This document shows, piece after piece, positions 5,821-30,121 of a stretch of 64,000 bases of DNA. The stretch is from the NCBI GenBank assembly GCA_032718475.1, contig JAUCBJ010004707.1, positions 1 to 64,000 of the forward strand. The letters are read 5' to 3'. Position 1 is the stretch's first letter, and every line of letters begins with the position of its first letter. A program made the position numbers and the translations under genes. Source of the stretch: Nemertoderma westbladi (taxonomy: Eukaryota > Animalia > Xenacoelomorpha). The notes beneath the pieces were generated by a model. That model was not told the DNA's origin. It saw only the letters and a program-made list of their open reading frames with translations, and did no database searches.

Positions 5821-5906
5821 AGCTCATTTTTATCGTTCAGATAAACCCGATGATAATTATTAGTAATTTTTTTTAATTGAAAAAATTTGCTTTCATAACG
5901 TTTCAG

Positions 5907-6052
5907 GACAAATCGAAGTTAACAAACCGTTGGATTACGAGACTTTATCTTCTCATACGATAGTAGTGCACGCAACTGATTTAGGAGTTCCTATCAAAAC
6001 TGCAACTCCCAAAGAAATTATTATAAACATTGGGAATGTCAATGACGTCACA
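5907..6052 (+). CDS. cadherin gene exon 2
   Basis: tttcag|(G)QIEVNKPLDYETLSSHTIVVHATDLGVPIKTATPKEIIINIGNVNDVT|gtaagt; phase 1-0. Confidence 0.92.
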
Positions 6053-6380
6053 GTAAGTAAACTGCAAAAGGATAAGAATAAAATATACCGATGGAACAAT
6101 TAATTGATTATAAATTATGATTCCTAAAATTTACAAATAGGGGGGTTCTTTTACTTCAATTTATTGTTGTGGTTGGAATAAGGTACCACGGCAACCTGCT
6201 CCTTACCCTTAATTGATAATTAATCATTGGGACGAGAGATGAATTTGCCGAGATGGGATATTCGAGAAGTTTCCCCACTGTCTGAAAATTTATTGATAAA
6301 TTATTAAATATGTTAAGTAACAATAGTTCTAGTTATAGTTATTAGTTGTTCGAAGATTAATTTCTCATATTATGATGCAG

Positions 6381-6598
6381 CCGTTGTGCGACCCAGAGGG
6401 GTATATTCTGGAAACACGCGAGGACGAAACAACAAAATCTGTCACTATATCCTGCGGTGATGGCGAAGATTTAGTCGGAGGTTCACCAAAGTTCGAGATA
6501 GTTTCCGTTACCCCGGGCACTGTGGGTTTGTTTACTATCGGTACTACTACAGGAGTGATCACTGCTTCAGGTCCCTTTAATTACGATACGGCAGAGAG
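6381..6598 (+). CDS. cadherin gene exon 3
   Basis: atgcag|PLCDPEGYILETRED...FTIGTTTGVITASGPFNYDTAE|gtaagt; phase 0-2. Confidence 0.9.
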
Positions 6599-6702
6599 GT
6601 AAGTGGTTCCTATTAGTACCGAGAATAACATCATTGTTGTTATGAGAACTTTAAGGAAGATTGCTCCTGACGGATTCCTTTACACGTGTGTTTATTTTTC
6701 AG

Positions 6703-6893
6703 TTATGAAGTTGAGCTAAAGTTCACTGATGATTCTGGCGGTGCTATCGAGAAGACGAGAAGTGTCTTCGTGCATGTATTTATCGCAGATGTAATAAACA
6801 ATCCACCGTTACTCACCGGTGTTCCCGGAGCGATAGCCCTGGATGAGAACACATTAGTAAATACAGCGATACTTGACGCACAATCTAATTATG
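6703..6893 (+). CDS. cadherin gene exon 4
   Basis: tttttcag|YEVELKFTDDSGG...IADVINNPPLLTGVPGAIALDENTLVNTAILDAQSNY|gtgagg; phase 2-1. Confidence 0.9.
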
Positions 6894-7068
6894 GTGAGGG
6901 TTTCATTGTTGTACGTCGATTCGATATTGTTGTTTATTTGTGTATTTTACGTAATTAATAATGTAATTTAAATTAAATAATTAGACTTAAAAATATATTT
7001 AAAAATGTACCATTATAATCATAAATAACATTTTCCATCAACTAAAAATCGTTGAAATATTCCCCCAG

Positions 7069-7275
7069 AAACGGCTTGGGACCTTTGTAAAGCCTCGGGA
7101 TGTTTACCAACCTACGCTTACAGCATATCTCTCAGTCTGCCAGACACGGTAAACGGTTACGGCGATAAATTCAGCATCGATCCATACACTGGCGTACTTC
7201 GTGGAACTAAGACTTTGGATTACGAGAGTTTACTGGCTGATTCGATACCGACAACTGTCGATATCACTGTAACAC
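7069..7275 (+). CDS. cadherin gene exon 5
   Basis: cccccag|(E)TAWDLCKASGCLPTYAYSIS...KFSIDPYTGVLRGTKTLDYES...VDITVT|gttagt; phase 1-1. Confidence 0.85.
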
Positions 7276-7962
7276 GTTAGTACTGTATATTAATTATTAT
7301 TATTTGTAACAAAATGTACAGTAAATTTCATTTATTTATAAATTATATACATCATTATTGCTTTACATTTCAATTAAAGATTGCCCTTCTGCTGATTGGC
7401 AATGATTTTTTTCTCAAACCATATTACGACATACCGAATAATAAAGCAGTTTATCTTACAGTAGGCCTACTAATCAGAATAGTTCTAGAACCGTTTTCTC
7501 AAGACGTACTGTAACATACATAGTAGAGTCAAGGTGTCTGAGTGGATACAAAACCTGAACTTATTAAAGAGATAAACTTTAGACATTAGTTCTTACGCAA
7601 ACCGAACGGTACAATGTGAACCCGGGAGAGTTAATGTATTGATATGAAGTGTTCACTCTACGGTTTTGATTTGCCATCAGTACCATTTAGCAAAGAGCCA
7701 AGAGAGAGAAGGTTCCGGGTTACTTCCGTTGTTTCGTGGTTCACCATCTCCTTTAGCTTTACTTTACAAAAATATTTACCGACCGACGTGTTGCCTGAGT
7801 AGGGGAAGATGTGAATCGTTGTCGTTGACAAACATAACATTAGTCTTCCTACCCTATTGGAAGACAGGTCTAATTAAAATTAATAATAATAATTAATTAA
7901 AATTAATAGTAATAATTCATTATAATAAACTTCTTTGACTTTAAATGGTTTTATTATTTCAG

Positions 7963-8120
7963 TAACGGACACTACCGGTCGAGCTGTACCCACCGGTAGC
8001 TCAGCTACAACGTCGTCTGTCGTCACTGTAAACGTAAAAGATGTGAACGATATAGCCCCGTATTTCACTCCCTCTGCCTCATTCGAGGGTTGTATAGACG
8101 AAATGGGGACTACAGGGACC
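7963..8120 (+). CDS. cadherin gene exon 6
   Basis: tttcag|(L)TDTTGRAV...VVTVNVKDVNDIAPYFTPSASFEGCIDEMGTTGT|gtaagt; phase 1-0. Confidence 0.92.
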
Positions 8121-8419
8121 GTAAGTTAGCAGCAATACTGTACGATGGCCACGCATTATAGCCTATATTACATAGTTTTGTGGGAAATCTTATTTCTGAA
8201 AATATCTAAACAGTATAATTTAATGAAAGGTTATCATTTTTTACTGTTTTGCAACTTTTTATAATATTAATATATACTTTCAGATTTAATTAATAATTTA
8301 GAATAATTAAAAATTAATGCAACAAAACATTTCATGAAATTAATTTAAATAAATGTGATATTTTAATATGTAAATGAATTAATAATATCGTTATTATCAA
8401 ACCGATTTATTTTGATTAG

Positions 8420-8618
8420 GTTTCGGGTGTTAACATGTTGTACAAAGACACGGACTTCCCGCCCACCAACCCCATTACTATACTCCCTTCCTCGAACACG
8501 AACCCGCCCAGATTCGCGATCAGCGGCAACCAGGTCACCTACGGGCCGGTTCCACCTGCGACGACACATTTCGACTTTGATTACGAAACTACTAAGTATT
8601 ATAATCTTACTGTTCTGA
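8420..8618 (+). CDS. cadherin gene exon 7
   Basis: gattag|VSGVNMLYKDTDFPPTNP...RFAISGNQV...FDFDYETTKYYNLTVL|gtaagt; phase 0-1. Confidence 0.9.
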
Positions 8619-8851
8619 GTAAGTTACCATTGTAAAACTCACTAAAATTGTAGTTTAACTGTTGGTAATTTTTTCATCCGTCTGTCTGCATCTGTCTTCA
8701 TCTGTTTTTCCACGTTCCACTTCTCTCAACCGCTCCTCATACTAGCGGATCTAGCGCAACTAATATGTTGGTAATAATCTATAATAAATAAAGTAATTAT
8801 ATTTCACGGGCATTTCTGCCGATCATTGAATCAGTGTATTTCTTGTTTCAG

Positions 8852-9043
8852 TCGCGGACAGTCCGACATCCGGTACTGCACTCACCGGTACCGGTCTCGT
8901 CGTCGTCTGTATTCGTCCGATCAATGAATTCCCTCCCGTTTGGGTCGACGCCACTGACCCGTTTCCCATCGATTTCCCGGAAATAGATGTTTTGGGAAAG
9001 AAAGTTGGATCTGCCGCTATCTCTGCTACAGATGCTGATGCTG
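8852..9043 (+). CDS. cadherin gene exon 8
   Basis: tttcag|(I)ADSPTSGTALTGTGLVVVCIRPINEFPPVW...ISATDADA|gttagt; phase 1-1. Confidence 0.92.
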
Positions 9044-9206
9044 GTTAGTTTATATATATTATACTTTAGCGAGATACTGTGGTAAAAAAACTTGTACTTA
9101 AAAAAAATATTATTAAATATAGGCTAGATCGATCGGATGCCTCCACAGTACCAAGGGACCTCTCTTCCGTTTAACTGGCGCCACTCAATCGCCATGGGCA
9201 CCAAGT

Positions 9207-9336
9207 CTGTGCCTGAGGCACTGCGGCTGTGCCACAAGTATTGTGGCTGTGTCACTAACTCTGTAGCTGTGCTACAAGTATTGTGGCTGTGTCACAAGCT
9301 CTGTAGCTGTGCCACACGCATTGCGACTGTGCCACA
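9207..9336. repeat. Degenerate 20-bp tandem repeat (CTGTGCCACAAGTATTGTGG-like), ~6.5 copies, alternating A/B units
   Basis: Units ctgtgccacaagtattgtgg / ctgtgtcactaactctgtag / ctgtgctacaagtattgtgg / ctgtgtcacaagctctgtag. Confidence 0.75.
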
Positions 9337-9534
9337 TGCAATACCACCTCCAACGCATAAAAGTGACGGAAGGGTTTTTTAAAAATACAGAAGGCCTAAA
9401 ATATAATGAAAAAAAATAAAATAAAATATAATTCACATAATGATTATTATAATTCCACAGTAAATGGAGAAATTATATTCTTAAACATTATACTCTTCTA
9501 GAATCATTAATATGTTTTATTATTATTGCATTAG

Positions 9535-9726
9535 GTATCGATGGCGTCGTTACTTACTCTATTACTCAAGCTCCTTTAGAATTTGTTAATAAGTTTCACA
9601 TGGATGAGTCGACGGGTTGGATTTACAGCACCGGAACTTTTGATAGAGAAGTCATTTCGTCGGCAATAAAGTTAACCGTGAAAGCGATAGATACTGGCGG
9701 GAAAGCAATACAGAAGGAAGTACAAG
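9535..9726 (+). CDS. cadherin gene exon 9
   Basis: cattag|(G)IDGVVTYSI...FHMDESTGWIYSTGTFDREV...LTVKAIDTGGKAIQKEVQ|gtttgt; phase 1-1. Confidence 0.9.
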
Positions 9727-10258
9727 GTTTGTTGTTTTGGTTGCAATAGAACGCGGACGTGTTAAATACAATGTGATAAGTTATTTGCCAGTATTTTAAC
9801 TTTAAGTTTCGTATTCTTCTACATAATATTGCTGGTGTATTTGATCTAACCCGTTTATGTATTGTTATATGCACTGTTTTAATGAACACTGACATTAAGG
9901 CCTAGTAACATAATGCTGACTTCTACTTACAGCCTTATATGGTGTCTCTAAATGGCCAAAATATAAATTATTAATTACCTATATGAAACAGTAAATATTG
10001 TTACTGCACTAACTGCAGTATTAAATATTAATTACTACTGTAATAAATAATCGTTATTACAGTAATAAATAGTTGGTACTGCAGTAACAAATAAATATTA
10101 CTGCATTATGTTTTTGGAGGGGTTTTTATTGTTTGATAGAGGTTTTTATTAATTATTATATTTTGACCTTTTAGAGACGACATACGTTATTTGGCAATCC
10201 TTAATGCTTGTTCGATTACAATACTTATTTCCTGATTGCTAACAATGTATTTTTTTAG

Positions 10259-10428
10259 TTACAATAACGGACGTTAACGATAATATCCCTATTTGCGATA
10301 CATATATCGGTGAGGCCAAGGTTGAGGAAGGAACCGCAGCCGGAGATCAGGATCTATTCAGTCTGAGCGCATTGAACTGTATTGATAGGGACGCAGACGC
10401 ACCGAATAATCAGATATCGTATAGTCAG
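10259..10428 (+). CDS. cadherin gene exon 10
   Basis: ttttag|(V)TITDVNDNIPICDTY...LNCIDRDADAPNNQISYSQ|gtttgt; phase 1-0. Confidence 0.92.
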
Positions 10429-10652
10429 GTTTGTAACCTATAGTAACGTTGTTATAGTACGATGTAAATACCTACTGAGATCATATAACTCTACCTAAGC
10501 CCGCCTCACATGAGTGTTTTTCGTTGCAACAATTTTTATGTTGCTCCCTCAAATATCGTCTATGTGTAACATATTTTTGGTATTATATTGTAAAATATGT
10601 AATGATTAATAAATGTGTTTCAGTGATCTTAACTTTTCGCATTTTAACTCAG

Positions 10653-10830
10653 GTTGGAGTGGCGTGGGACCCATTCAAATGGGATGGGGTGAACAACAAA
10701 GTCCAATGGTCTAACGGGAAATCTTTGGATTACGATTTGGGACCCACAAGTTATACGAGACAAGTTAACGTCGAGGACGGCGGCCTACCGCCGCTGATAA
10801 GGACTGTTACAGTCCATATTGAGGTTACAC
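10653..10830 (+). CDS. cadherin gene exon 11 (its 3' end is the first unit of the 27/29-bp array)
   Basis: actcag|VGVAWDPFKW...SLDYDLGP...VEDGGLPPLIRTVTVHIEVT+C|gtgagt; phase 0-1. Joining to exon 12 gives HIEVTPKNEFTP, matching other linkers in the protein (VLPKNEYTP, VTPSNEFPP). Confidence 0.9.
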
Positions 10831-13800
10831 GTGAGTTACAGTCCATAGAAGTTATACGTGAGTTACAGTCCATATTGAGGTTACACGTGAGTTACAGCCC
10901 ATAGAGGTTACACGTGAGTTACAGTCCATAGAGGTTACACGTGAGTTACAGCCCATAGAGGTTACTCGTGAGTTACAGTCCATAGAGGTTACACGTGAGT
11001 TACAGTCCATAGAGGTTACACGTGAGTTACAGTCCATAGAGGTTACACGTGAGTTACAGACCATAGAGGTTACACGTGAGTTACAGTCCATAGAGGTTAT
11101 ACGTGAGTTACAGTCCATATTGAGGTTACACGTGAGTTACAGTCCATAGAGGTTACACGTGAGTTGCAATCCATACAGGTTACACGTGAGTTACAGTCCA
11201 TAGAGGTTACACGTGAGTTACAGCCCATAGAGGTTACACGTGAGTTACAATCCATAGAGGTTACACGTGAGTTACAGTCCATAGAGGTTACTCGTGAGTT
11301 ACAATCCATAGAGGTTACACGTGAGTTACAGTCCATATTGAGGTTACACGTGAGTTGCAATCCATAGAGGTTACACGTGAGTTACAGTCCATATTGAGGT
11401 TACACGTGAGTTACAGTCCATAGAGGTTACTCGTGAGTTACAATCCATAGAGGTTACACGTGAGTTACAGTCCATATTGAGGTTACACGTGAGTTGCAAT
11501 CCATAGAGGTTACACGTGAGTTACACTCCATATTGAGGTTACACGTGAGTTACAGTCCATATTGAGGTTACACGTGAGTTACAGCCCATAGAGGTTACAC
11601 GTGAGTTACAATCCATAGAGGTTACACGTGAGTTACAGCCCATAGAGGTTACACGTGAGTTACAATCCATAGAGGTTACACGTGAGTTACAGTCCATATT
11701 GAGGTTACACGTGAGTTACAGTCCATATTGAGGTTACACGTGAGTTACAGCCCATAGAGGTTACACGTGAGTTACAATCCATAGAGGTTACACGTGAGTT
11801 ACAGCCCATAGAGGTTACACGTGAGTTACAATCCATAGAGGTTACACGTGAGTTACAGTCCATAGAGGTTACACGTGAGTTACAGCCCATAGAGGTTACA
11901 CGTGAGTTACAATCCATAGAGGTTACACGTGAGTTACAGCCCATAGAGGTTACACGTGAGTTACAATCCATAGAGGTTACACGTGAGTTACAGTCCATAG
12001 AGGTTACACGTGAGTTACAGTCCATAGAGGTTACACGTGAGTTACAATCCATAGAGGTTACACGTGAGTTACAGTCCATAGAGGTTACACGTGAGTTACA
12101 GTCCATAGAGGTTACACGTGAGTTACAATCCATAGAGGTTACACGTGAGTTACAGTCCATAGAGGTTACACGTGAGTTACAGTCAATATTGAGGTTACAC
12201 GTGAGTTACAGTCCATATTGAGGTTACACGTGAGTTACAGCCCATAGAGGTTACACGTGAGTTACAGTCCATATTGAGGTTACACGTGAGTTACAGTCCA
12301 TATTGAGGTTACACGTGAGTTACAGCCCATAGAGGTTACACGTGAGTTACAATCCATAGAGGTTACACGTGAGTTACAGTCCATAGAGGTTACACGTGAG
12401 TTACAATCCATAGAGGTTACACGTGAGTTACAGTACATAGAGGTTACACGTGAGTTACAGTCCATATTGAGGTTACACGTGAGTTACAGCCCATAGAGGT
12501 TACACGTGAGTTACAATCCATAGAGGTTACACGTGAGTTACAGTCCATAGAGGTTACACGTGAGTTACAATCCATAGAGGTTACACGTGAGTTACAGTCC
12601 ATAGAGGTTACTCGTGAGTTACAATCCATAGAGGTTACACGTGAGTTACAGTCCATATTGAGGTTACACGTGAGTTGCAATCCATAGAGGTTACACGTGA
12701 GTTACAGTCCATATTGAGGTTACACGTGAGTTACAGTCCATAGAGGTTACTCGTGAGTTACAATCCATAGAGGTTACACGTGAGTTACAGTCCATATTGA
12801 GGTTACACGTGAGTTGCAATCCATAGAGGTTACACGTGAGTTACACTCCATATTGAGGTTACACGTGAGTTACAGTCCATATTGAGGTTACACGTGAGTT
12901 ACAGCCCATAGAGGTTACACGTGAGTTACAATCCATAGAGGTTACACGTGAGTTACAGCCCATAGAGGTTACACGTGAGTTACAATCCATAGAGGTTACA
13001 CGTGAGTTACAGTCCATATTGAGGTTACAGGTGAGTTACAGTCCATATTGAGGTTACACGTGAGTTACAGCCCATAGAGGTTACACGTGAGTTACAATCC
13101 ATAGAGGTTACACGTGAGTTACAGCCCATAGAGGTTACACGTGAGTTACAATCCATAGAGGTTACACGTGAGTTACAGTCCATAGAGGTTACACGTGAGT
13201 TACAGCCCATAGAGGTTACACGTGAGTTACAATCCATAGAGGTTACACGTGAGTTACAGCCCATAGAGGTTACACGTGAGTTACAATCCATAGAGGTTAC
13301 ACGTGAGTTACAGTCCATAGAGGTTACACGTGAGTTACAGTCCATAGAGGTTACACGTGAGTTACAATCCATAGAGGTTACACGTGAGTTACAGTCCATA
13401 GAGGTTACACGTGAGTTACAATCCATAGAGGTTACACGTGAGTTACAGTCCATAGAGGTTACACGTGAGTTACAGTCCATATTGAGGTTACACGTGAGTT
13501 ACAGTCCATATTGAGGTTACACGTGAGTTACAGCCCATAGAGGTTACACGTGAGTTACAATCCATAGAGGTTACACGTGAGTTACAGTCCATAGAGGTTA
13601 CACGTGAGTTACAATCCATAGAGGTTACACGTGAGTTACAGTCCATATTGAGGTTACACGTGAGTTACAGTCCATATTGAGGTTACACGTGAGTTACAGC
13701 CCATAGAGGTTACACGTGAGTTACAATCCATAGAGGTTACACGTGAGTTACAGCCCATAGAGGTTACACGTGAGTTACAGTCCATAGAAGTTATACGTGA

Positions 13801-16800
13801 GTTACAGTCCATATTGAGGTTACACGTGAGTTACAGTCCATAGAAGTTACTCGTGAGTTACAATCCATAGAGGTTACACGTGAGTTACAGTCCATATTGA
13901 GGTTACACGTGAGTTACAGTCCATAGAGGTTACACGTGAGTTGCAATCCATAGAGGTTACACGTGAGTTACAGTCCATATTGAGGTTACACGTGAGTTAC
14001 AGTCCATAGAGGTTACTCGTGAGTTACAATCCATAGAGGTTACACGTGAGTTACAGTCCATATTGAGGTTACACGTGAGTTGCAATCCATAGAGGTTACA
14101 CGTGAGTTACACTCCATATTGAGGTTACACGTGAGTTACAGTCCATATTGAGGTTACACGTGAGTTACAGCCCATAGAGGTTACACGTGAGTTACAATCC
14201 ATAGAGGTTACACGTGAGTTACAGCCCATAGAGGTTACACGTGAGTTACAATCCATAGAGGTTACACGTGAGTTACAGTCCATATTGAGGTTACAGGTGA
14301 GTTACAGTCCATATTGAGGTTACACGTGAGTTACAGCCCATAGAGGTTACACGTGAGTTACAATCCATAAAGGTTACACGTGAGTTACAGCCCATAGAGG
14401 TTACACGTGAGTTACAGTCCATAGAGGTTACACGTGAGTTACAATCCATAGAGGTTACACGTGAGTTACAGTCCATAGAGGTTACACGTGAGTTACAGTC
14501 CATATTGAGGTTACACGTGAGTTACAGTCCATATTGAGGTTACACGTGAGTTACAGCCCATAGAGGTTACACGTGAGTTACAATCCATAGAGGTTACACG
14601 TGAGTTACAGTCCATAGAGGTTACACGTGAGTTACAATCCATAGAGGTTACACGTGAGTTACAGTCCATATTGAGGTTACACGTGAGTTACAGTCCATAT
14701 TGAGGTTACACGTGAGTTACAGCCCATAGAGGTTACACGTGAGTTACAATCCATAGAGGTTACACGTGAGTTACAGCCCATAGAGGTTACACGTGAGTTA
14801 CAGTCCATAGAAGTTATACGTGAGTTACAGTCCATATTGAGGTTACACGTGAGTTACAGTCCATAGAAGTTACTCGTGAGTTACAATCCATAGAGGTTAC
14901 ACGTGAGTTACAGTCCATATTGAGGTTACACGTGAGTTACAGTCCATAGAGGTTACACGTGAGTTGCAATCCATAGAGGTTACACGTGAGTTACAGTCCA
15001 TATTGAGGTTACACGTGAGTTACAGTCCATAGAGGTTACTCGTGAGTTACAATCCATAGAGGTTACACGTGAGTTACAGTCCATATTGAGGTTACACGTG
15101 AGTTGCAATCCATAGAGGTTACACGTGAGTTACACTCCATATTGAGGTTACACGTGAGTTACAGTCCATATTGAGGTTACACGTGAGTTACAGCCCATAG
15201 AGGTTACACGTGAGTTACAATCCATAGAGGTTACACGTGAGTTACAGCCCATAGAGGTTACACGTGAGTTACAATCCATAGAGGTTACACGTGAGTTACA
15301 GTCCATATTGAGGTTACACGTGAGTTACAGTCCATATTGAGGTTACACGTGAGTTACAGCCCATAGAGGTTACACGTGAGTTACAATCCATAGAGGTTAC
15401 ACGTGAGTTACAGCCCATAGAGGTTACACGTGAGTTACAATCCATAGAGGTTACACGTGAGTTACAGTCCATAGAGGTTACACGTGAGTTACAGTCCATA
15501 GAGGTTACACGTGAGTTACAGTCCATAGAGGTTACACGTGAGTTACAGTCCATAGAGGTTACACGTGAGTTACAATCCATAGAGGTTACACGTGAGTTAC
15601 AGTCCATAGAGGTTACACGTGAGTTACAATCCATAGAGGTTACACGTGAGTTACAGTCCATAGAGGTTACACGTGAGTTACAGTCCATATTGAGGTTACA
15701 CGTGAGTTACAGTCCATATTGAGGTTACACGTGAGTTACAGCCCATAGAGGTTACACGTGAGTTACAATCCATAGAGGTTACACGTGAGTTACAGTCCAT
15801 AGAGGTTACACGTGAGTTACAATCCATAGAGGTTACACGTGAGTTACAGTACATAGAGGTTACACGTGAGTTACAGTCCATATTGAGGTTACACGTGAGT
15901 TACAGCCCATAGAGGTTACACGTGAGTTACAATCCATAGAGGTTACACGTGAGTTACAGTCCATAGAGGTTACACGTGAGTTACAATCCATAGAGGTTAC
16001 ACGTGAGTTACAGTCCATAGAGGTTACTCGTGAGTTACAATCCATAGAGGTTACACGTGAGTTACAGTCCATATTGAGGTTACACGTGAGTTGCAATCCA
16101 TAGAGGTTACACGTGAGTTACAGTCCATATTGAGGTTACACGTGAGTTACAGTCCATAGAGGTTACTCGTGAGTTACAATCCATAGAGGTTACACGTGAG
16201 TTACAGTCCATATTTAGGTTACACGTGAGTTGCAATCCATAGAGGTTACACGTGAGTTACACTCCATATTGAGGTTACACGTGAGTTACAGTCCATATTG
16301 AGGTTACACGTGAGTTACAGCCCATAGAGGTTACACGTGAGTTACAATCCATAGAGGTTACACGTGAGTTACAGCCCATAGAGGTTACACGTGAGTTACA
16401 ATCCATAGAGGTTACACGTGAGTTACAGTCCATATTGAGGTTACAGGTGAGTTACAGTCCATATTGAGGTTACACGTGAGTTACAGCCCATAGAGGTTAC
16501 ACGTGAGTTACAATCCATAGAGGTTACACGTGAGTTACAGCCCATAGAGGTTACACGTGAGTTACAATCCATAGAGGTTACACGTGAGTTACAGTCCATA
16601 GAGGTTACACGTGAGTTACAGCCCATAGAGGTTACACGTGAGTTACAATCCATAGAGGTTACACGTGAGTTACAGCCCATAGAGGTTACACGTGAGTTAC
16701 AATCCATAGAGGTTACACGTGAGTTACAGTCCATAGAGGTTACACGTGAGTTACAGTCCATAGAGGTTACACGTGAGTTACAATCCATAGAGGTTACACG

Positions 16801-19800
16801 TGAGTTACAGTCCATAGAGGTTACACGTGAGTTACAATCCATAGAGGTTACACGTGAGTTACAGTCCATAGAGGTTACACGTGAGTTACAGTCCATATTG
16901 AGGTTACACGTGAGTTACAGTCCATATTGAGGTTACACGTGAGTTACAGCCCATAGAGGTTACACGTGAGTTACAATCCATAGAGGTTACACGTGAGTTA
17001 CAGTCCATAGAGGTTACACGTGAGTTACAATCCATAGAGGTTACACGTGAGTTACAGTCCATATTGAGGTTACACGTGAGTTACAGTCCATATTGAGGTT
17101 ACACGTGAGTTACAGCCCATAGAGGTTACACGTGAGTTACAATCCATAGAGGTTACACGTGAGTTACAGCCCATAGAGGTTACACGTGAGTTACAGTCCA
17201 TAGAAGTTATACGTGAGTTACAGTCCATATTGAGGTTACACGTGAGTTACAGTCCATAGAAGTTACTCGTGAGTTACAATCCATAGAGGTTACACGTGAG
17301 TTACAGTCCATATTGAGGTTACACGTGAGTTACAGTCCATAGAGGTTACACGTGAGTTGCAATCCATAGAGGTTACACGTGAGTTACAGTCCATATTGAG
17401 GTTACACGTGAGTTACAGTCCATAGAGGTTACTCGTGAGTTACAATCCATAGAGGTTACACGTGAGTTACAGTCCATATTGAGGTTACACGTGAGTTGCA
17501 ATCCATAGAGGTTACACGTGAGTTACACTCCATATTGAGGTTACACGTGAGTTACAGTCCATATTGAGGTTACACGTGAGTTACAGCCCATAGAGGTTAC
17601 ACGTGAGTTACAATCCATAGAGGTTACACGTGAGTTACAGCCCATAGAGGTTACACGTGAGTTACAATCCATAGAGGTTACACGTGAGTTACAGTCCATA
17701 TTGAGGTTACACGTGAGTTACAGTCCATATTGAGGTTACACGTGAGTTACAGCCCATAGAGGTTACACTTGAGTTACAATCCATAGAGGTTACACGTGAG
17801 TTACAGCCCATAGAGGTTACACGTGAGTTACAATCCATAGAGGTTACACGTGAGTTACAGTCCATAGAGGTTACACGTGAGTTACAGTCCATAGAGGTTA
17901 CACGTGAGTTACAGTCCATAGAGGTTACACGTGAGTTACAGTCCATAGAGGTTACACGTGAGTTTCAATCCATAGAGGTTACACGTGAGTTACAGTCCAT
18001 AGAGGTTACACGTGAGTTACAATCCATAGAGGTTACACGTGAGTTACAGTCCATAGAGGTTACACGTGAGTTACAGTCCATATTGAGGTTACACGTGAGT
18101 TACAGTCCATATTGAGGTTACACGTGAGTTACAGCCCATAGAGGTTACACGTGAGTTACAATCCATAGAGGTTACACGTGAGTTACAGTCCATAGAGGTT
18201 ACACGTGAGTTACAATCCATAGAGGTTACACGTGAGTTACAGTCCATAGAGGTTACACGTGAGTTACAGTCCATATTGAGGTTACACGTGAGTTACAGCC
18301 CATAGAGGTTACACGTGAGTTACAATCCATAGAGGTTACACGTGAGTTACAGTCCATAGAGGTTACACGTGAGTTACAATCCATAGAGGTTACACGTGAG
18401 TTACAGTCCATAGAGGTTACTCGTGAGTTACAATCCATAGAGGTTACACGTGAGTTACAGTCCATATTGAGGTTACACGTGAGTTGCAATCCATAGAGGT
18501 TACACGTGAGTTACAGTCCATATTGAGGTTACACGTGAGTTACAGTCCATAGAGGTTACTCGTGAGTTACAATCCATAGAGGTTACACGTGAGTTACAGT
18601 CCATATTGAGGTTACACGTGAGTTGCAATCCATAGAGGTTACACGTGAGTTACACTCCATATTGAGGTTACACGTGAGTTACAGTCCATATTGAGGTTAC
18701 ACGTGAGTTACAGCCCATAGAGGTTACACGTGAGTTACAATCCATAGAGGTTACACGTGAGTTACAGCCCATAGAGGTTACACGTGAGTTACAATCCATA
18801 GAGGTTACACGTGAGTTACAGTCCATATTGAGGTTACAGGTGAGTTACAGTCCATATTGAGGTTACACGTGAGTTACAGCCCATAGAGGTTACACGTGAG
18901 TTACAATCCATAAAGGTTACACGTGAGTTACAGCCCATAGAGGTTACACGTGAGTTACAATCCATAGAGGTTACACGTGAGTTACAGTCCATAGAGGTTA
19001 CACGTGAGTTACAGCCCATAGAGGTTACACGTGAGTTACAATCCATAGAGGTTACACGTGAGTTACAGTCCATAGAGGTTACACGTGAGTTACAATCCAT
19101 AGAGGTTACACGTGAGTTACAGTCCATAGAGGTTACACGTGAGTTACAGTCCATAGAGGTTACACGTGAGTTACAATCCATACAGGTTACACGTGAGTTA
19201 CAGTCCATAGAGGTTACACGTGAGTTACAGTCAATATTGAGGTTACACGTGAGTTACAGTCCATATTGAGGTTACACGTGAGTTACAGCCCATAGAGGTT
19301 ACACGTGAGTTACAATCCATAGAGGTTACACGTGAGTTACAGTCCATAGAGGTTACACGTGAGTTACAATCCATAGAGGTTACACGTGAGTTACAGTCCA
19401 TAGAGGTTACACGTGAGTTACAGTCCATATTGAGGTTACACGTGAGTTACAGTCCATAGAGGTTACACGTGAGTTACAGTCCATAGAGGTTACACGTGAG
19501 TTACAGTCCATATTGAGGTTACACGTGAGTTACGGTCCATATTGATGTTACACGTGAGTTACAGTCCATATTGAGGTTACACGTGAGTTACAGTCCATAG
19601 AGGTTACACGTGAGTTACAGTCCATAGTGGTTACACGTGAGTTACAGTCCATATTGTGGTTACACTTGAGTTACAATCCATAGAGGTTACACGTCAGTTA
19701 CAGTCCATAGAGGTTACACGTGAGTTACAATCCATAGAGGTTACACGTGAGTTACAGTCCATAGAGGTTACACGTGAGTTACGTCCATATTGAGGTTACA

Positions 19801-22065
19801 CGTGAGTTACAATCCATAGAGGTTACACGTGAGTTACAGTCCATATTGAGGTTACACGTGAGTTACGGTCCATATTGATGTTACACGTGAGTTCCAGTCC
19901 ATATTGAGGTTACACGTGAGTTACAGTCCATAGAGGTTACTCGTGAGTTACAGTCCATATTGAGGTTACACGTGAGTTACGGTCCATATTGATGTTACAC
20001 GTGAGTTCCAGTCCATATTGAGGTTACACGTGAGTTACAGTCCATAGAGGTTACTCGTGAGTTACAGTCCATATTGAGGTTACACGTGAGTTACGGTCCA
20101 TATTGATGTTACACGTGAGTTCCAGTCCATATTGAGGTTACACGTGAGTTACAGTCCATAGAGATTACTCGTGAGTTACAGTCCATAGATGTTACACGTG
20201 AGTTCCAGTCCATATTGAGGTTACACGTGAGTTACAGTCCATAGAGGTTACACGTTAGTTACAGTCCATAGAGGTTACACGTGAGATACAGTCCATATTG
20301 AGGTTACACGTGAGTTACGGTCCATATTGATGTTACACGTGAGTTACAGTCCATATTGAGGTTACACGTGAGTTACAGTCCATAGAGGTTACACGTGAGT
20401 TACAGTCCATAGAGGTTACCCGTGAGTTACAATCCATAGAGGTTACACGTGAGTTACAGTCCATATTGAGGTTACACGTGAGTTACAGTCCATATTGAGG
20501 TTACACGTGAGTTACAGCCCATAGAGGTTACACGTGAGTTACAATCCATAGAGGTTACACGTGAGTTACAGCCCATAGAGGTTACACGTGAGTTACAATC
20601 CATAGAGGTTACACGTGAGTTACAGCCCATAGAGGTTACACGTGAGTTACAATCCATAGAGGTTACACGTGAGTTACAGTCCATAGAGGTTACACGTGAG
20701 TTACAGTCCATAGAGGTTACACGTGAGTTACAATCCATAGAGGTTACACGGGAGTTACAGCCCATAGAGGTTACACGTGAGTTACAATCCATAGAGGTTA
20801 CACGTGAGTTACAGTCCATTGAGGTTACACGTGAGTTACAGTCCATAGAGGTTACACGTGAGTTACAGTCCATAGAGGTTACACGTGAGTTACAGTCCAT
20901 TGAGGTTACACGTGAGTTACAGTCCATAGAGGTTACACGTGAGTTACAGTCCATAGAGGTTACACGTGAGTTACAATCCATAGAGGTTACACGGGAGTTA
21001 CAGCCCATAGAGGTTACACGTGAGTTACAATCCATAGAGGTTACACGTGAGTTACAGCCCATAGAGGTTACACGTGAGTTACAATCCATAGAGGTTACAC
21101 GTGAGTTACAGTCCATAGAGGTTACACGTGAGTTACAGTCCATAGAGGTTACACGTGAGTTACAATCCATAGAGGTTACACGGGAGTTACAGCCCATAGA
21201 GGTTACACGTGAGATACAGTCCATATTGAGGTTACACGTGAGTTACGGTCCATATTGATGTTACACGTGAGTTACAGTCCATATTGAGGTTACACGTGAG
21301 TTACAGTCCATAGAGGTTACACGTGAGTTACAGTCCATAGAGGTTACCCGTGAGTTACAATCCATAGAGGTTACACGTGAGTTACAGTCCATATTGAGGT
21401 TACACGTGAGTTACAGTCCATATTGAGGTTACACGTGAGTTACAGCCCATAGAGGTTACACGTGAGTTACAATCCATAGAGGTTACACGTGAGTTACAGT
21501 CCATAGAGGTTACACGTGAGTTACAGTCCATAGAGGTTACACGTGAGTTACAATCCATAGAGGTTACACGGGAGTTACAGCCCATAGAGGTTACACGTGA
21601 GTTACAATCCATAGAGGTTACACGTGAGTTACAGTCCATTGAGGTTACACGTGAGTTACAGTCCATAGAGGTTACACGTGAGTTACAGTCCATAGAGGTT
21701 ACACGTGAGTTACAGTCCATAGAGGTTACACGTGAGTTACAGTCCATAGAGGTTACACGTGAGTTACAATCCATAGAGGTTACACGGGAGTTACAGCCCA
21801 TAGAGGTTACACGTGAGTTACAATCCATAGAGGTTACACGTGAGTTACAGTCCATTGAGGTTACACGTGAGTTACAATCCATAGAGGTTACACGTGAGTT
21901 ACAGTCCATAGAGGTTACACGTGAGTTACAGTCCATAGAGGTTACACGTGAGTTACAGACCATAGAGGTTACTCGTGAGTTACAGACCATATAGTTTACA
22001 CGTGAGTTACAGTCCATAGAGGTTACACGTGAGTTACAATCCATAGAGGTTACACGTGAGTTACA
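10806..22065. repeat. 27/29-bp minisatellite (GTTACAGTCCATA[TT]GAGGTTACACGTGA)n, ~410 copies, derived from the exon 11 / intron junction
   Basis: Tandem array read directly. The 29-bp unit is identical to the last 25 nt of exon 11 plus GTGA. Confidence 0.98.
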
Positions 22066-22222
22066 TAACTGAGTTTAATAACATTGAATGTACTGTTGTC
22101 GAGTAGTAATTTACAGTATTTTAAATGCAGAGCCGATTAATTATTAGACTTCTGAGTTTACTACTGAATGGCCCCACAACGGTCTTTATTGTGACTCATC
22201 TGTTCATTGAATTATTTTGCAG

Positions 22223-22396
22223 CTAAGAACGAGTTTACCCCCTCGGTTACCGTAGCGACTCCGCCCTGGCCGTATACAACATCCTCCCCAGTTCTTCTCC
22301 CAGAAGACACGCCCAGACTGACCCACTTTGCTACAATGCAGTGCACCGACCAGGACGCCGGCGACGACGGCAATGTCGTCATGGAACTACAAGCAG
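22223..22396 (+). CDS. cadherin gene exon 12
   Basis: ttgcag|(P)KNEFTPSV...LPEDTP...MQCTDQDAGDDGNVVMELQA|gtgcgg; phase 1-1. Confidence 0.9.
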
Positions 22397-23669
22397 GTGC
22401 GGTTACTTTCTCTTAATTTAGTGTTTGGTTGTTTACACCTATTTTATTCTACACAGTATCAGATCACGGGGCGGTGCCTGGAATTTAGCCCCAGGCGATC
22501 TCAGGAATGTCTGAGGTGTAAGAAGTCTGAGGAATCCCACTTTTGGCCGAGTCAGCAAATTGAATGGTTGACCTCAGTCGTTTTTGTTTACTAAGGACGT
22601 ATTTATACGTCCTGTTGTTAATGGCTGCCAATGGGGATGGTAGAAGTTTAGGTTATTCTCGCAGTGTTTATTCATCCCATAGGACAGTATACTTACTACC
22701 CGTTTTACTTAAAACAAGCGCGAAATCGCGCCAAGGTCCTCGTCTACTAACGAATGAAATGTTTCCTTGAATGGCTTACTACCAATCTTACAACAAAAAA
22801 CATTCACCGGAATGAGGGGATTGAACTCGGTACCTGCCAACTGAGCAACTGGGGCCGTATCAATCCTTAATACCAAAACCTAACGTGAAATTAACACCAC
22901 CGACAACAACAACAACAACAACGCAACGGAGTGAATACTAGAGGTCTCGCTACGCGGACCTAAAAAGTGATCTGGAGTTTGGGTTAGAGGTTGGGATGTA
23001 GAATTCAACCAATCAGCGATGAGCTTCTTTTTTTTAGAGAAAGCAGGCGGCTTATTGATTGCAGATTGATTGTACCTTGTACATGGCAGAGGCTTGAAAG
23101 CCCTTGAGAATTCCAACCAATCAGCGTTTATTTCCCTTTCAAGCTTCCACTGTAATTTACTTTGTAAATAAATAAATATAACATTATGACTGAAAAGTGA
23201 AAACCTGGTATTCTTCATAATATTGGTGTACTTCGTAATTGAATTAAAAATATGAATGCATTAAATTAAAAAGATATGGCGCATAAGAATATCATGACAC
23301 CTTTTAAGATAAAAGTCAAATAATTTTAAAATTGTGTCATAACTTCTAGATGATTGGCATTGGCTTAAATGTGTTTTAAAGTTTTCTTAATTTTTAGGTT
23401 CTGGGGGGTTATTTAAAAAAGGGCCTAGTAACTAAAGGGTAAAGGTTAAGACGGTAGGTAGTTTTGACACATTTTATAATTTTTTTCACCAACCTTAGAT
23501 ACCATAATCTCGAATAATGACTTCTGCCTATTAGAATTCATTTTCTCTCATATTTAAATATTTTGTTTGTCTTTTATTCTAATTCAAACAATTAATTTAA
23601 CTATCTTATTTTATTTTATAGACAAATTAATCGTCAGTAATTATTTTATTATTTTATTGTAAATTTCAG

Positions 23670-23860
23670 GAGGCAACTTCAACAAATGGTTTAGTATTCA
23701 TCCCATTACTGGTGCAATAAAGGTTGCCAGACAACTGGATAAAGAAGCGGCTGGCCTCCCGGCCTCCATCACGCTGGTTGCAGACTGCACTGACCAGTCC
23801 GCTGTAGTTGGTAACAGATTGACTGCCGCATCTAACCCATCAGTGGTCGTTCAATTACAG
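23670..23860 (+). CDS. cadherin gene exon 13
   Basis: tttcag|(G)GNFNKWFSIHPITGAIKVARQLDKE...CTDQS...VVVQLQ|gtgggc; phase 1-0. Confidence 0.92.
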
Positions 23861-24410
23861 GTGGGCAATCACCCGATTGTCTCATATTCATAATAGTGCT
23901 TTGTTACCAGAAATAATGTACCGAAACATTGAAATAGATAACATGGAAAAGTTTAAAGAACATAAATCATAAATACAAAACGGTTGTTGATGTCTTCTTG
24001 CATGTCGTCAAGGCGGTCTTTGTTTAATATTAGTGATCTTTAATTTAATAATGTGTAATGCAGCTACAGTACTTATTTATTACAGTAGAAACAAATAGGC
24101 TTTTCTTCCCTATGATTTGAAATAAAATAAATCACCGGGGAACAGGTCTGAAACTTCACTTTAAGTGCGGGATATAAAGTCAAGAATAATTAACTTTTTT
24201 AACAAAAAAAAAATTATATTCACTATTAATTAATTATTAATTATTATTTAATTAATCTAACTATTAATTAATTAAATTAATTCACTGTCAAGGTATATTC
24301 ACTATTATTGGCAAATAACCGGTAAATTGAGGTTATTTATAAATTTTTCATTAAATCGGTATTCTCAATAACCTTCCTAGTACTGTAATATTATTTATAT
24401 ATTTGTTTAG

Positions 24411-24581
24411 GACGTGAACGACAACGCACCAGTCTGTTCCTCACAATATTTCGCTGTTAGCGCGATGGAAGCCGTCAACTTTGCCTCCACCAACACCCCC
24501 GGAATAGCGACAATATCTGGATGTACCGACGCTGATATTACTGGTCCATTCAACTCACTGGTCTACGTCATTACAAAACAA
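24411..24581 (+). CDS. cadherin gene exon 14
   Basis: tttatatatttgtttag|DVNDNAPVCSSQYF...SGCTDADITGPFNSLVYVITKQ|gtcagt; phase 0-0. Confidence 0.9.
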
Positions 24582-24995
24582 GTCAGTGTAACAATAAGTT
24601 AATCATATATATAATTATTCCTAATTACATAATTGATCTTATACTTTTTGTTACATGATGTTAAATGTAGCAAATAACCATCTTGTCTTATAGTCTTCCT
24701 TCGTGCGCACCCTGGTAACAATACTGAAGACAATGGCCGCAGTACTGCAGTTAGCCAACCAGATGTTTTTTATTATTTAGTCTGTCTGTCGCTGTGGCAC
24801 CTTTCGTTTCTGTCCATTTTTTTCACATCTATGTAAAATGTTTTCCTGAAAAAAATCTTTTCACATTATGTTGTTACATCGGTGGGTTTAACTCTTATTG
24901 ACTATCTATATTTTCGGAGGAGTTTCCCGTTATTTACATACATACAGACCTCCATACAGACCTCCACGGTCTTATAAAATATCTTCTCATTTTAG

Positions 24996-25226
24996 GTAAA
25001 AGTTGACAACAGCGTTAGCCCTGCAAAGACCACTGATATAACATCGACTCCGCACTTTAAAATGTCCACCGTGAGTGGGAATAGGGTTGCTGTCAACGAT
25101 AATCCTCCTGGATTCGAGTTAGACTACGAGATTGCGGATCAGAGAGTGTACGAGGTTACCGTGGAAGTTCGCGATAACAATGGAGTCGCGCCCTACTTCA
25201 GTACAGAGGTGCATGTTACTATAGAG
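24996..25226 (+). CDS. cadherin gene exon 15
   Basis: ttttag|VKVDNSVSP...ELDYEIADQRVYEVTVEVRDNNGVAPYFSTEVHVTIE|gtgagg; phase 0-0. Confidence 0.88.
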
Positions 25227-25367
25227 GTGAGGTGAAGATTGATAATTAACTATAAAGTCTCATCCCTTTCTTATTTTTACGATTTTAAGCAATTTATTTT
25301 TTATCTTATTAAGACTAAATTATTTTTAGACGTTTTCGAATTACATGTATGTGATTAATATTAACAG

Positions 25368-25606
25368 GTTCTTCCAAAGAACGAATATACCCCAACGTGG
25401 ACGTTGTCCCCAGAACCTTACGAATTCCATGTTCTAGAAAGCGCCCCGGCCGGCTACATTATTCACACGTTTGGGGAATTCGAGATCTACGACAAAGATT
25501 CCGGGGTACAAGGCGATGTCTCTTTCGAGTTTAACGCGAACCCCGTTAATATCGTGGCGATAGACGACACGGGCCGTAATCTCATACTCACTCAATCTAT
25601 AGACAG
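25368..25606 (+). CDS. cadherin gene exon 16
   Basis: taacag|VLPKNEYTPTW...VLESAPAG...IYDKDSGVQG...LTQSID|gtgggt; phase 0-2. Confidence 0.92.
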
Positions 25607-25893
25607 GTGGGTCGGAATTAGTAGATCTGTTGTACTGCAAACAGGCAGGTGGACTTAAAAATGAAATGAAATAAATTAAAATAAAATAACATAAAAGTGT
25701 AATAAAATTTATTGTGTGGTTAACTTGAGAGCAATATTAATATTATATATTATATTAGCCAATCAACTGCGCTTGGCGACTATTATGACTGACGTCAAAT
25801 GAGCAAGTTCCTGAAAAATTTATCTCTAGGGTTTTTTCACATGCTCTTGCACATGAAAACAATAATGAAGACTCGATAAATTTTCCTGAGTCG

Positions 25894-28759
25894 CCAAACC
25901 CCATTGTATTTGTGTTCCCAAACCCCATTGTATTTGTGTTCCCAAACCCCATTGTATTTGTGTTCCCAAACCCCATTGTATTTGTGTTCCCAAACCCCAT
26001 TGTATTTGTGTTCGCAAACCCCATTGTATTTGTGTTCCCAAACCCCATTGCTTTTGTGTTCCCAAACCCAATTGTATTTGTGTTCCCAAACCCCATTGTA
26101 TTTGTGTTCCCAAACCCCATTGTATTTGTGTTCCCAAACCCCATTGTATTTGTGTTCCCAAACCCCATTGTATTTGTGTTCCCAAACCCCATTGTATTTG
26201 TGTTCGCAAACCCCATTGTATTTGTGTTCCCAAACCCCATTGCTTTTGTGTTCCCAAACCCAATTGTATTTGTGTTCCCAAACCCCATTGTATTTGTGTT
26301 CCCAAACCCCATTGTATTTGTGTTCCCAAACCCCATTGTATTTGTGTTCCCAAACCCCATTGTATTTGTGTTCCCAAACCCCATTGTATTTGTGTTCCCA
26401 AACCCCATTGTATTTGTGAACCCAAACCCCATTACATTTGTGTTCCCAAACCCCATTGTATTTGTGTTCCCAAACCCCATTGTATTTGTGTTCCCAAACC
26501 CCATTGTATTTGTGTTCCCAAACCCCATTGTATTTGTGTACCCAAACCCCATTACATTTGTGTTCCCAAACCCCATTGTATTTGTGTTCCCAAACCCCAT
26601 TGTATTTGTGTTCCCAAACCCCATTGTATTTGTGTTCCCAAACCCCATTGTATTTGTGTTTCCAAACCACATTGCTTTTGTGTTCCCAAACCCCATTGCA
26701 TTTGTGTTCCCAAACCCCATTGTATTTGTGTTCCCAAACCCCATTGTATTTGTGTTCCCAAACCCCATTGTATTTGTGTTCCCAAACCCCATTGTATTTG
26801 TGTTACCAAACCCCATTGTATTTGTGTTCCCAAACCCAATTGTATTTGTGTTCCCAAACCCCATTGTATTTGTGTTCCCATACCCCATTGTATTTGTGTT
26901 CCCAAACCCCATTGTATTTGTGTTCCCAAACACCATTGTATTTGTGTTCCCAAACCCCATTGTATTTGTGTTCCCAAACCCCATTGTATTTGTGTTCCCA
27001 AACCCCATTGTATTTGTGTTCCCAAACCCCATTGTATTTGTGTTCCCAAACCCCATTGTATTTGTGTTCCCAAACCCCATTGTATTTGTGTTCCCAAACC
27101 CCATTGTATTTGTGTTCCCAAACCCCATTGTATTTGTGTTCCCAAACCCCATTGTATTTGTGTTCCCAATCCCCATTGCATTTGTGTTCCCAAACCCCAT
27201 TGTATTTGTGTTCCCAAACCCCATTGTATTTGTGTTCCCAAACCCCATTGTATTTGTGTTCCCAAACCCCATTGTATTTGTGTTCCCAAACCCCATTGTA
27301 TTTGTGTTCCCAAACCCCATTGTATTTGTGTTCCCAAACCCCATTGTATTTGTGTTCCCAAACCCCATTGTATTTGTGTTCCCAAACCCCATTGTGTTTG
27401 TGTTCCCAAACCCCATTGTATTTGTGTTCCCAATCCCCATTGCATTTGTGTTCCCAAACCCCATTGTATTTTTGTTCCCAAACCCCATTGTATTTGTGTT
27501 CCCAAACCCCATTGTATTTGTGTTCCCAAACCCCATTGTATTTTTGTTCCCAAACCCCATTGTATTTGTGTTCCCCCCTTGATTTGTGTTCCCAAACCCC
27601 ATTGTATTTGTGTTCCCAAACCCCTTGTATTTGTGTTCCCCCCTTGTATTTGTGTTCCCAAACCCCATTGTATTTGTGTTCCCAAACCCCATTGTATTTG
27701 TGTTCCCAAACCCCATTGTATTTGTGTTCCCAAACCCCATTGTATTTGTGTTCCCAAACCCCATTGTATTTGTGTTCCCAAACCCCATTGTATTTGTGTT
27801 CCCAAACCCCATTGTATTTGTGTTCCCAAACCCCATTGTATTTGTGTTCCCAAACCCCATTGTATTTGTGTTCCCAAACCCCATTGTATTTGTGTTCCCA
27901 AACCCCATTGTATTTGTGTTCCCAAACCCCATTGTATTTGTGTTCCCAAACCCCATTGTATTTGTGTTCCCAAACCCATTGTATTTGTGTTCCCAAACCC
28001 ATTGTATTTGTGTTCCCAAACCCCATTGTATTTGTGTTCCCAAACCCCATTGCATTTGTGTTCCCAAACCCCATTGTATTTGTGTTCCCAAACCCCATTG
28101 TATTTGTGTTGCCAAACCCCATTGTATTTGTGTTCCCAAACCCCATTGTATTTGTGTTCCCAAACCCCATTGTATTTGTGTTCCCATACCCCATTGTATT
28201 TGTGTTCCCAAACCCCATTGTATTTGTGTACCCAAACCCCATTGTATTTGTGTACCCAAACCCCATTGTATTTGTGTTCCCAAACCCCATTGTATTTGTG
28301 TTCCCACACCCCATTGTATTTGTGTTCCCAAACCCCATTGTATTTGTGTACCCAAACCCCATTGTATTTGTGTTCCCAAACCCCATTGTATTTGTGTTCC
28401 CAAACCCCATTGTATTTGTGTTCCCAAACCCCATTACATTTGTGTACCCAAACCCCATTGTATTTGTGTACCCAAACCCCATTGTATTTGTGTTCCCAAA
28501 CCCCATTGTATTTGTGTACCCAAACCCCATTGTATTTGTGTTCCCAAACCCCATTGTATTTGTGTTCCCAAACCCCATTGTATTTGTGTTCCCAAACCCC
28601 ATTGTATTTGTGTTCCCAAACCCCATTGTATTTGTGTACCCAAACCCCATTGTATTTGTGTTCCCAAACCCCATTGTATTTGTGTTCCCAAACCCCATTG
28701 TATTTGTGTTCCCACACCCCATTGTATTTGTGTTCCCAAACCCCATTGTATTTGGGTTC
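25894..28759. repeat. 24-bp minisatellite (CCAAACCCCATTGTATTTGTGTTC)n, ~119 copies
   Basis: Tandem array read directly, in the intron between exons 16 and 17. Ends ~23 nt before the exon 17 acceptor. Confidence 0.98.
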
Positions 28760-28782
28760 TCTCGATTTGTTATCTTTTCCAG

Positions 28783-28930
28783 GGAATCCATCGCTAAGTA
28801 CACCGGAATTATTATCAATGCTAAGGACGGTGGCGATCCAGGCGCTGGTGATCAGTTAACCGCTACACTACAGATGTCATTGGTTATTGATGACGTCATT
28901 GACACGCCGCCAGTATGTAATTCGCCCCAG
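28783..28930 (+). CDS. cadherin gene exon 17
   Basis: ttttccag|(R)ESIAKYTGIIINAKDGGDP...LVIDDVIDTPPVCNSPQ|gtaagg; phase 2-0. Completes the DRE motif with exon 16. Confidence 0.93.
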
Positions 28931-29014
28931 GTAAGGCTTCGTGGTCTATCCATCTATATTATTTAGTAGGGACGTTAAGCACCGGATTGTGGAGGAATTC
29001 TGCATTTTGTGATA

Positions 29015-29862: not shown

Positions 29863-29986
29863 ACTGTAACCTGTGTTCCATTGACTTTCGTTTATTGTTT
29901 TGGTTAGAATGCCATCCCCTGTAACCTGTGCTCTATTGACTTTCGTTTATTGTTTTGGTTAGAATATCACTCCCTGTAATCTGTGC
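29863..29986. repeat. ~56-bp tandem duplication (2+ copies) next to a G-run (29825-29841)
   Basis: ctgtaacctgtg...attgactttcgtttattgttttggttagaat occurs twice, followed by a partial third copy. Confidence 0.8.
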
Positions 29987-30121
29987 CTTTCCTTTAGTTA
30001 ATAATTAACAATATCAATTCACAGACATCATGTGATTTACGACCAATTCCCCCTTGCCCGCTGTCTCTATATTAAACATATTTTTTTTTTCCTTTTAATG
30101 AATAGTTATTATTTTTTCCAG

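What the first reader, a model, noticed from the sequence alone, without database searches (positions are those of the whole stretch)
10806..22065. An 11-kb satellite made from a coding exon's end plus its own 5' splice site (~410 tandem donors)
Seen: exon 11 ends ...ACT GTT ACA GTC CAT ATT GAG GTT ACA C|GTGAGTTACA, and the 29-bp unit is exactly GTTACAGTCCATATTGAGGTTACACGTGA. The array ends ...CAC|GTGAGTTACA TAACTGAG, leading into a 167-bp ordinary intron remainder (22056-22222). GTTACA occurs at both ends of the ancestral segment, giving a 6-bp microhomology for the founding duplication. Splicing from the first donor (10831) to exon 12 restores HIEVT-PKNEFTP, so the gene is intact. Inference: a ~170-bp intron was inflated about 70-fold by amplifying its own exon/donor junction. 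The spliceosome must pick the first of ~410 near-identical CAC|GTGAGT sites, presumably by exon definition or co-transcriptional order.
Basis: partly seen in the sequence, partly recalled or inferred. Interest (0 to 1): 0.85.

Follow-up and report, generated by a model that had tools for sequence, protein, structure and literature searches.

The report
Giant splice-donor minisatellite in cadherin intron
The predicted end of a cadherin exon and its splice signal are repeated about 409 times over 11 kb of the next intron; the cell likely still uses the first signal, as with the known human and lancelet repeats of this kind, one of which reaches the same size.

Summary
Real. The array at 10806-22065 has about 409 units, and its first unit is the last 25 coding bases of a predicted cadherin exon plus 4 intron bases. 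Correction: the main unit is a 27-bp derivative (303 of 408); the 29-bp form is 104 of 408. A 26-exon model spliced at the first donor gives 1,638 residues without a stop. Of 398 full donor hexamers, only the first two keep the frame. A second individual has the array too, probably much shorter. No RNA run was listed, so donor choice is inferred. The kind is known: F7, CBS, 6-16, amphioxus 'mirages', and the ABCA7 repeat, which reaches about 427 units and 10.7 kb. This scan has found such arrays before on other DNA. It is best read as a tolerated, turning-over minisatellite in a repeat-rich gene. The better lead is a 41-bp array of at least 27 kb in the same gene that looks copied from a splice acceptor. 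New member of a known kind; interest 0.2.

The parts
10653..10830 (+). Predicted coding exon (11th in the window) ending a cadherin repeat; its last 25 bases are the source of most of the unit
   Evidence: Open frame in phase with the 26-exon model; Pfam Cadherin positions 55-93, weak at E 0.068; weak alignments to CELSR1 and protocadherins ending on the last strand
10828..10836 (+). First donor (GT at 10831), the predicted authentic 5' splice site
   Evidence: 7 of 9 U1 matches, within the 5-8 range of the gene's other 25 donors; best linker score of 26 open-frame donor/acceptor pairs
10855..10863 (+). Second donor (GT at 10858), weaker; the only other donor hexamer that keeps the frame (+9 residues)
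10806..22065 (+). Minisatellite of about 409 units of 27/29 bp, 36 unit variants, higher-order duplicated blocks
22056..22222 (+). Last donor copy and non-repeat intron remainder with the acceptor (167 bp)
   Evidence: acceptor scores 7.3 against at most 4 for any AG in the array
22223..22396 (+). Next predicted exon (12th), completing the inter-repeat linker
   Evidence: Pfam Cadherin positions 4-35, weak at E 0.2
1642..36684 (+). Host gene as far as seen: 26 predicted exons of a long cadherin-repeat protein, open at both ends
   Evidence: 1,638 residues, no stop; Pfam Cadherin at E < 0.001 in 5 of 10 single exons, best 3.8e-07
37129..64000 (+). Second, larger array in the same gene (41-bp unit, at least 655 copies) whose unit looks like an acceptor plus the start of the next exon; outside the finding, runs off the window
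   Evidence: acceptor score 10.5, reached by 2 of 460 intronic AGs; continues the cadherin strand pattern when joined to exon 26; the real exon is not in the window

Best explanation
This is an exon-intron junction minisatellite: about 409 copies of a 27/29-bp unit matching a predicted cadherin exon end and its splice donor fill the next intron, likely a tolerated by-product of repeat turnover in which the first donor is predicted to be used. Shown: the unit matches the exon end, the copies keep their donors, large blocks were re-duplicated, and a second individual has the array. Inferred steps: (1) slippage between the three copies of a hexamer in the 35 bases around the junction made the first duplication; (2) a 2-base deletion made the 27-bp variant; (3) unequal exchange expanded the array in blocks of up to 1.5 kb; (4) the most upstream donor wins, as tested for human F7, helped by the lack of a strong acceptor inside the array; (5) a small leak to the second donor would add 9 residues, and leaks to later donors would meet a stop and likely be degraded.
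For: The first donor gives 1,638 residues without a stop; 396 of the other 397 donor hexamers give a premature stop. It also gives the best match to seven of the gene's own linkers, 26.3 against 21.1 for donor 2, among 26 open-frame pairs. Donor positions carry as many distinct changes as the rest of the unit (9 in 9 positions, 19 in 18; p = 1.0), so there is no sign of selection for or against decoys. No AG in the array scores above 4, against 7.3 for the real acceptor. Identical runs of 53, 35 and 32 units. Flanking contigs stop at 10835 in all three runs that hold the locus, from two individuals. Depth per copy is 1.6-2.4 times flank depth in X1 and about 0.15 times in X2. Four arrays fill 70% of the window. 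Precedents: PMC1557585, PMC3087553, PMC5954066.
Against: No transcript was seen, so the exon end and the donor choice rest on reading frame and internal likeness. No orthologue was found to show the short ancestral intron. The second individual's 3' edge differs, which weakens the simple microhomology account. Depth of contigs is no copy number by the tool's own warning, and X1 may be the source of the window. The F7 experiments were in mammalian cells with six or so copies; carrying them to about 400 copies in an invertebrate is an extrapolation. ABCA7 shows that such arrays can have length-dependent effects on splicing, so 'neutral' is not assured.
Confidence: 0.82

Rival explanations
1. The array is a length-polymorphic splicing modifier: more copies draw more use of donor 2 (+9 residues in a predicted calcium-binding linker), more unproductive splicing or skipping of the next exon, and so tune cadherin dose or stiffness.
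For: Donor 2 is the only in-frame alternative. CBS and 6-16 use two proximal pseudo-sites (PMC1557585, introduction). ABCA7 shows retention of one unit, and exon skipping and lower expression with length (PMC5954066). Depth hints at different lengths in two individuals.
Against: Donor 2 is weaker (6 of 9 U1 matches). 75% of all units are multiples of three, so an in-frame second unit is the expected case. No signature of selection on donor positions. In the passage read, ABCA7 single-unit retention was listed among events not affected by length (sentence cut off).
Confidence: 0.1
2. A pre-existing satellite was inserted at or spread into this intron, and its first unit was taken over as the exon end and donor.
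For: The genome region is rich in satellites, two of them with no tie to a junction. The test for foreign flanks was weak: the known exon-side flank itself did not appear as a loose end.
Against: The first unit encodes the terminal cadherin strand in the same register as the gene's other repeats and aligns weakly with solved cadherins. No contig with a foreign flank was listed among 71 laid. X1 depth fits about two arrays of this size, not a large genome-wide family.
Confidence: 0.04
3. The array is real but its length is inflated by mis-assembly, for example by joining two haplotypes or duplicating kilobase blocks.
For: Perfectly identical blocks of up to 1,459 bp; no spanning read was seen; the second individual holds far fewer array words.
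Against: X1 holds about twice the array words expected from one window-length array at flank depth, so the sample has at least this many copies in total. The blocks are interrupted by unique variants.
Confidence: 0.04

Closest known systems
Human ABCA7 intron 18 VNTR (PMC5954066, passages read; PMC13747324, passages read)
   Same: 25-bp unit that begins with the exon's donor; largest allele 10,678 bp, about 427 units, so the same scale; use of the second donor retains one unit; strong length polymorphism.
   Different: The ABCA7 unit starts at the GT and is described as intronic and C-rich; here 25 of 29 bases are coding exon. One extra unit shifts the frame in ABCA7 but not here. ABCA7 inflates its intron eightfold over the reference, here about 68-fold over a one-unit intron. 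ABCA7 has RNA and disease data; this has none.
Human CBS intron 13 31-bp VNTR, c.1444_1467+7(16_21) (PMC2630376, passages read; splicing outcome from PMC1557585 introduction)
   Same: By its name the unit is 24 exon plus 7 intron bases, nearly the anatomy seen here (25 plus 4); units vary by substitutions.
   Different: 16-21 copies against about 409; use of two pseudo-sites is reported for CBS and untested here.
Human F7 intron 7 37-bp VNTR (PMC1557585; abstract, introduction and discussion read)
   Same: First unit spans the boundary and repeats an identical donor; only the most upstream site is used, and stronger downstream sites short of a perfect consensus did not compete.
   Different: 5-9 copies, 4 exon plus 33 intron bases; mechanism tested by mutation there, inferred here.
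Amphioxus 'mirages' (Adh3, globins BflGb6/BflGb9, troponin C, PGBD5; PMC3087553 and PMC3902484, passages read; the original Adh3 paper was not seen)
   Same: [quoted passage not shown]
   Different: The globin cases read have 3-6 units of about 150 bp; this array has about 409 short units, and the same gene probably holds a second, acceptor-side array of at least 655 units.

Membership tests
Junction-spanning minisatellite ('mirage'; F7/CBS/ABCA7 type) | Head-to-tail array of a minisatellite-sized unit | tested here: met
   Period 27, 409 copies; mean identity to consensus 96%
Junction-spanning minisatellite ('mirage'; F7/CBS/ABCA7 type) | First unit spans an exon-intron boundary of a gene | tested here: met
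   Boundary at 10830/10831 from the open 26-exon model and the linker test; a prediction, no transcript seen
Junction-spanning minisatellite ('mirage'; F7/CBS/ABCA7 type) | Splice signal repeated intact in the copies | tested here: met
   402 of 409 keep GT; 368 identical over 9 bases
Junction-spanning minisatellite ('mirage'; F7/CBS/ABCA7 type) | Copy number varies between alleles | tested here: inconclusive
   Depth per copy over flank depth about 2 in X1 and 0.15 in X2; different 3' edge; contig depth is only a hint
Junction-spanning minisatellite ('mirage'; F7/CBS/ABCA7 type) | mRNA uses the authentic site, with at most a leak to the nearest copies | not testable with these tools
   No RNA holder listed; frame argument only
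Dispersed or multi-locus satellite family | Same unit in arrays at unrelated loci | tested here: inconclusive
   No genome held; no foreign flank among 71 contigs laid, but sensitivity is low; total depth fits one locus
Coding tandem repeat | Array lies in an open reading frame | tested here: not met
   Read-through in the exon's frame stops in the third unit; 29-bp units shift the frame about every fourth unit

The most novel reading that the evidence does not exclude
One gene has amplified both kinds of splice site into giant arrays, about 409 donors and at least 655 acceptor-type units, because in this genome satellites are preferentially seeded at or retained across exon junctions. The donor array's length would tune a +9-residue cadherin isoform, and the acceptor array, where 319 units have AG followed directly by GT, would be removed stepwise like a recursive-splicing ratchet.
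Probability: 0.08. Interest if true: 0.6.

Novelty: new member of a known kind. Interest (0 to 1): 0.2.

Why it matters
It is at the upper end of a known kind: about 409 intact donors in an invertebrate gene whose median intron is 489 bp. With RNA it would be a clean natural test of whether first-donor choice, shown for a handful of copies in mammalian cells, holds over hundreds of copies in another animal lineage, and whether short and long alleles splice alike. It does not show a new mechanism, and human ABCA7 already offers an array of this size with RNA data. The probable acceptor-side array in the same gene would allow both directions to be tested in one transcript.

Tried and rejected
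No whole genome is held, so no genome-wide scan for the unit or for other junction arrays was possible. No RNA holder was listed among 6 runs; this says nothing about expression. Orthologue searches with single exons found nothing: exon 11, 0 of 11 candidates; exon 22, 0 of 296; both were limited to proteins of at most 2,000 residues, so this is weak. The HMMER search of representatives never ran; the Atlas did not answer. The organism and the cadherin subfamily therefore remain unnamed. Run X5 did not cover the array's 3' side, which proves nothing. Masking of decoys by RNA structure: the first 301 bases fold no better than shuffles (z = +0.79, 77 of 100 as good), so rejected for that stretch. 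Rfam found nothing in 1-38000. Coding repeat: rejected. Erosion of decoy donors by selection: not seen. Enrichment of arrays at junctions in this gene: 2 of the 4 large arrays gives P 0.04-0.11 and 2 of 9 arrays P 0.18-0.39 by unit length, counting the unproven acceptor array, so not claimed. Literature searches with no or no relevant hits; these do not show that arrays this large are unreported in invertebrates. No supplements were read; the Adh3 'mirage' paper was not seen and may report larger arrays.

Full report
Observation. Tandem Repeats Finder reports an array at 10806-22065 with period 27 and 409.2 copies. Parsing at the donor core gives 408 complete units in 36 variants: 303 of 27 bp, 104 of 29 bp and 1 of 28 bp (an earlier, stricter parse gave 405 pieces with the same picture). 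The 29-bp form at 10806-10834 is the last 25 bases of a predicted exon plus 4 intron bases and recurs exactly 78 times; the 27-bp form lacks two bases. Of 409 donor cores, 402 keep GT, 368 equal the first over 9 bases and 4 match U1 better (the U1 consensus used is recalled, not from a call). The last donor is at 22056 and the remainder to the acceptor is 167 bp.

Host gene. I placed 26 exons between 1642 and 36684 by eye from the sequence, all with AG and GT ends once the end of exon 22 was corrected; joined, they give 1,638 residues without a stop. Single exons hit Pfam Cadherin at E < 0.001 in 5 of 10 cases and only weakly, E 0.02-0.2, in 4 of another 5. The model is open at both ends. The organism is an animal by its gene; I could not name it or the subfamily, since two homologue searches found nothing and the larger search never ran.

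Among 26 donor/acceptor pairs near the junction that keep the frame open, 10830 to 22223 gives the best match to seven other linkers of the same protein (26.3; next 21.1 for donor 2, then 14.4). The exon end also aligns, weakly, with the last strand of solved cadherin repeats (E 0.06-0.9). This favours the exon end being older than the array. Of 398 full donor hexamers, only donor 1 and donor 2 (10858, +9 residues) avoid a stop through exon 21; the other 396 meet one. No transcript could be examined.

How it grew. A hexamer occurs at 10806, 10824 and 10835, so the junction was already internally repetitive, a plausible seed for slippage. The unit string has identical runs of 53, 35 and 32 units (1,459, 969 and 884 bp) against at most 7 in 30 shuffles, which points to expansion by block duplication. 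The 29-bp form is spread evenly along the array. Distinct changes fall in donor positions as often as elsewhere (9 in 9, 19 in 18), so decoys are neither being removed nor kept.

Other individuals. Three DNA runs from two samples hold the locus; X1 may be the window's source. The flanking contig ends at 10835 in X1, X2 and X3, and an X3 contig runs from exon 12 into array units, so the second individual has the array at the same place. One exactly matching array contig gives 32 depth units per window copy in X1 (flanks 13.6 and 19.8) and one gives 3.3 in X2 (flanks 24.2 and 18.9). That fits about two arrays of this size in X1 and a much shorter array in the second sample. It rests on one contig per run, the tool warns that depth is no copy number, and variant make-up may differ, so it is a hint. 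The only loose ends among 71 contigs laid were more array, but the exon-side flank did not show either, so dispersed copies are not excluded.

Why the first donor probably wins. In human F7, identical downstream donors are functional but silent, the most upstream is chosen, and stronger downstream sites short of a perfect consensus do not compete (PMC1557585; abstract, introduction and discussion read). Here no AG in the array scores above 4 on a matrix from the gene's own acceptors, against 7.3 for the real one, so internal donors lack a partner for exon definition. The first 301 bases fold no better than shuffles. A leak to the nearest copies is likely by analogy with CBS, 6-16 and ABCA7. 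These steps are inferred.

Comparison. The kind is described: F7 (5-9 copies), CBS (15-21, unit 24 exon plus 7 intron bases by its name; passages of PMC2630376), 6-16 (25 pseudo-sites), lamin B2 and PDGF, and amphioxus 'mirages' on donor and acceptor sides (passages of PMC3087553 and PMC3902484). Size is not new either: the ABCA7 repeat begins each unit with the donor and reaches 10,678 bp, about 427 units (passages of PMC5954066 and PMC13747324). The leads to F7, CBS and the word 'mirage' came from earlier notes of this scan, which has met such arrays in other genomes, one of them a cadherin; the ABCA7 lead was my recall, then checked.

Context. Four arrays fill 44.6 kb, 70% of the window. 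The 36-bp array is mid-intron and the 24-bp array ends 24 bases before an acceptor. The 41-bp array from 37129 to the window's end has a T-rich tract and AG that score 10.5, reached by 2 of 460 intronic AGs, and joining exon 26 to it continues the cadherin strand pattern by eye; 265 sites score near that level and 319 have AG followed by GT. It is probably the acceptor-side mirror, but the exon lies beyond the window. With 52 junctions in about 17.8 kb of pre-expansion gene, a random seed overlaps one 9-15% of the time, so two hits are not clearly above chance.

Verdict. It is a large new member of a known kind, with donor use untested. Interest 0.2.

Noticed in passing
window 37129-64000: 41-bp array, at least 655 copies and 26.9 kb, whose unit looks like a strong acceptor plus the start of the next cadherin exon; 319 units have AG followed by GT, though the donors this would regenerate are weak (4-6 of 9 U1 matches). 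Probable acceptor-side mirage, larger than the finding.
   Followed up: partly
window 25894-28759: 24-bp array, 120 copies, ending 24 bases before the acceptor of exon 17; next to a splice site but not across it.
   Followed up: partly
window 2107-5717: 36-bp GC-rich array, 103 copies, mid-intron, with a donor-like AG-GT in each unit by eye; no link to an exon end found.
   Followed up: no
window 33596-34021: 426-bp predicted exon encoding about 141 non-cadherin residues with several cysteines; no Pfam hit, no homologue. The model stays open with or without it, so it may be a cassette exon with an inserted domain; it recalls a lectin or discoidin-type domain from memory only.
   Followed up: partly
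window 1-1530 and about 36860-37065: Decayed non-LTR retrotransposon reverse-transcriptase-like sequence by eye, with a related fragment on the minus strand just before the 41-bp array; not tested with a tool.
   Followed up: no
window 9123-9173 and 8778-9558: The second individual lacks 49 intron bases (X2, X3); one X5 contig joins an intron repeat to the middle of exon 9, skipping 779 bases, unexplained and possibly chimeric.
   Followed up: no
window about 31830-32010 and 35990-36130: Two copies of a short tRNA-like interspersed element by eye; Rfam gave no match at gathering score.
   Followed up: no
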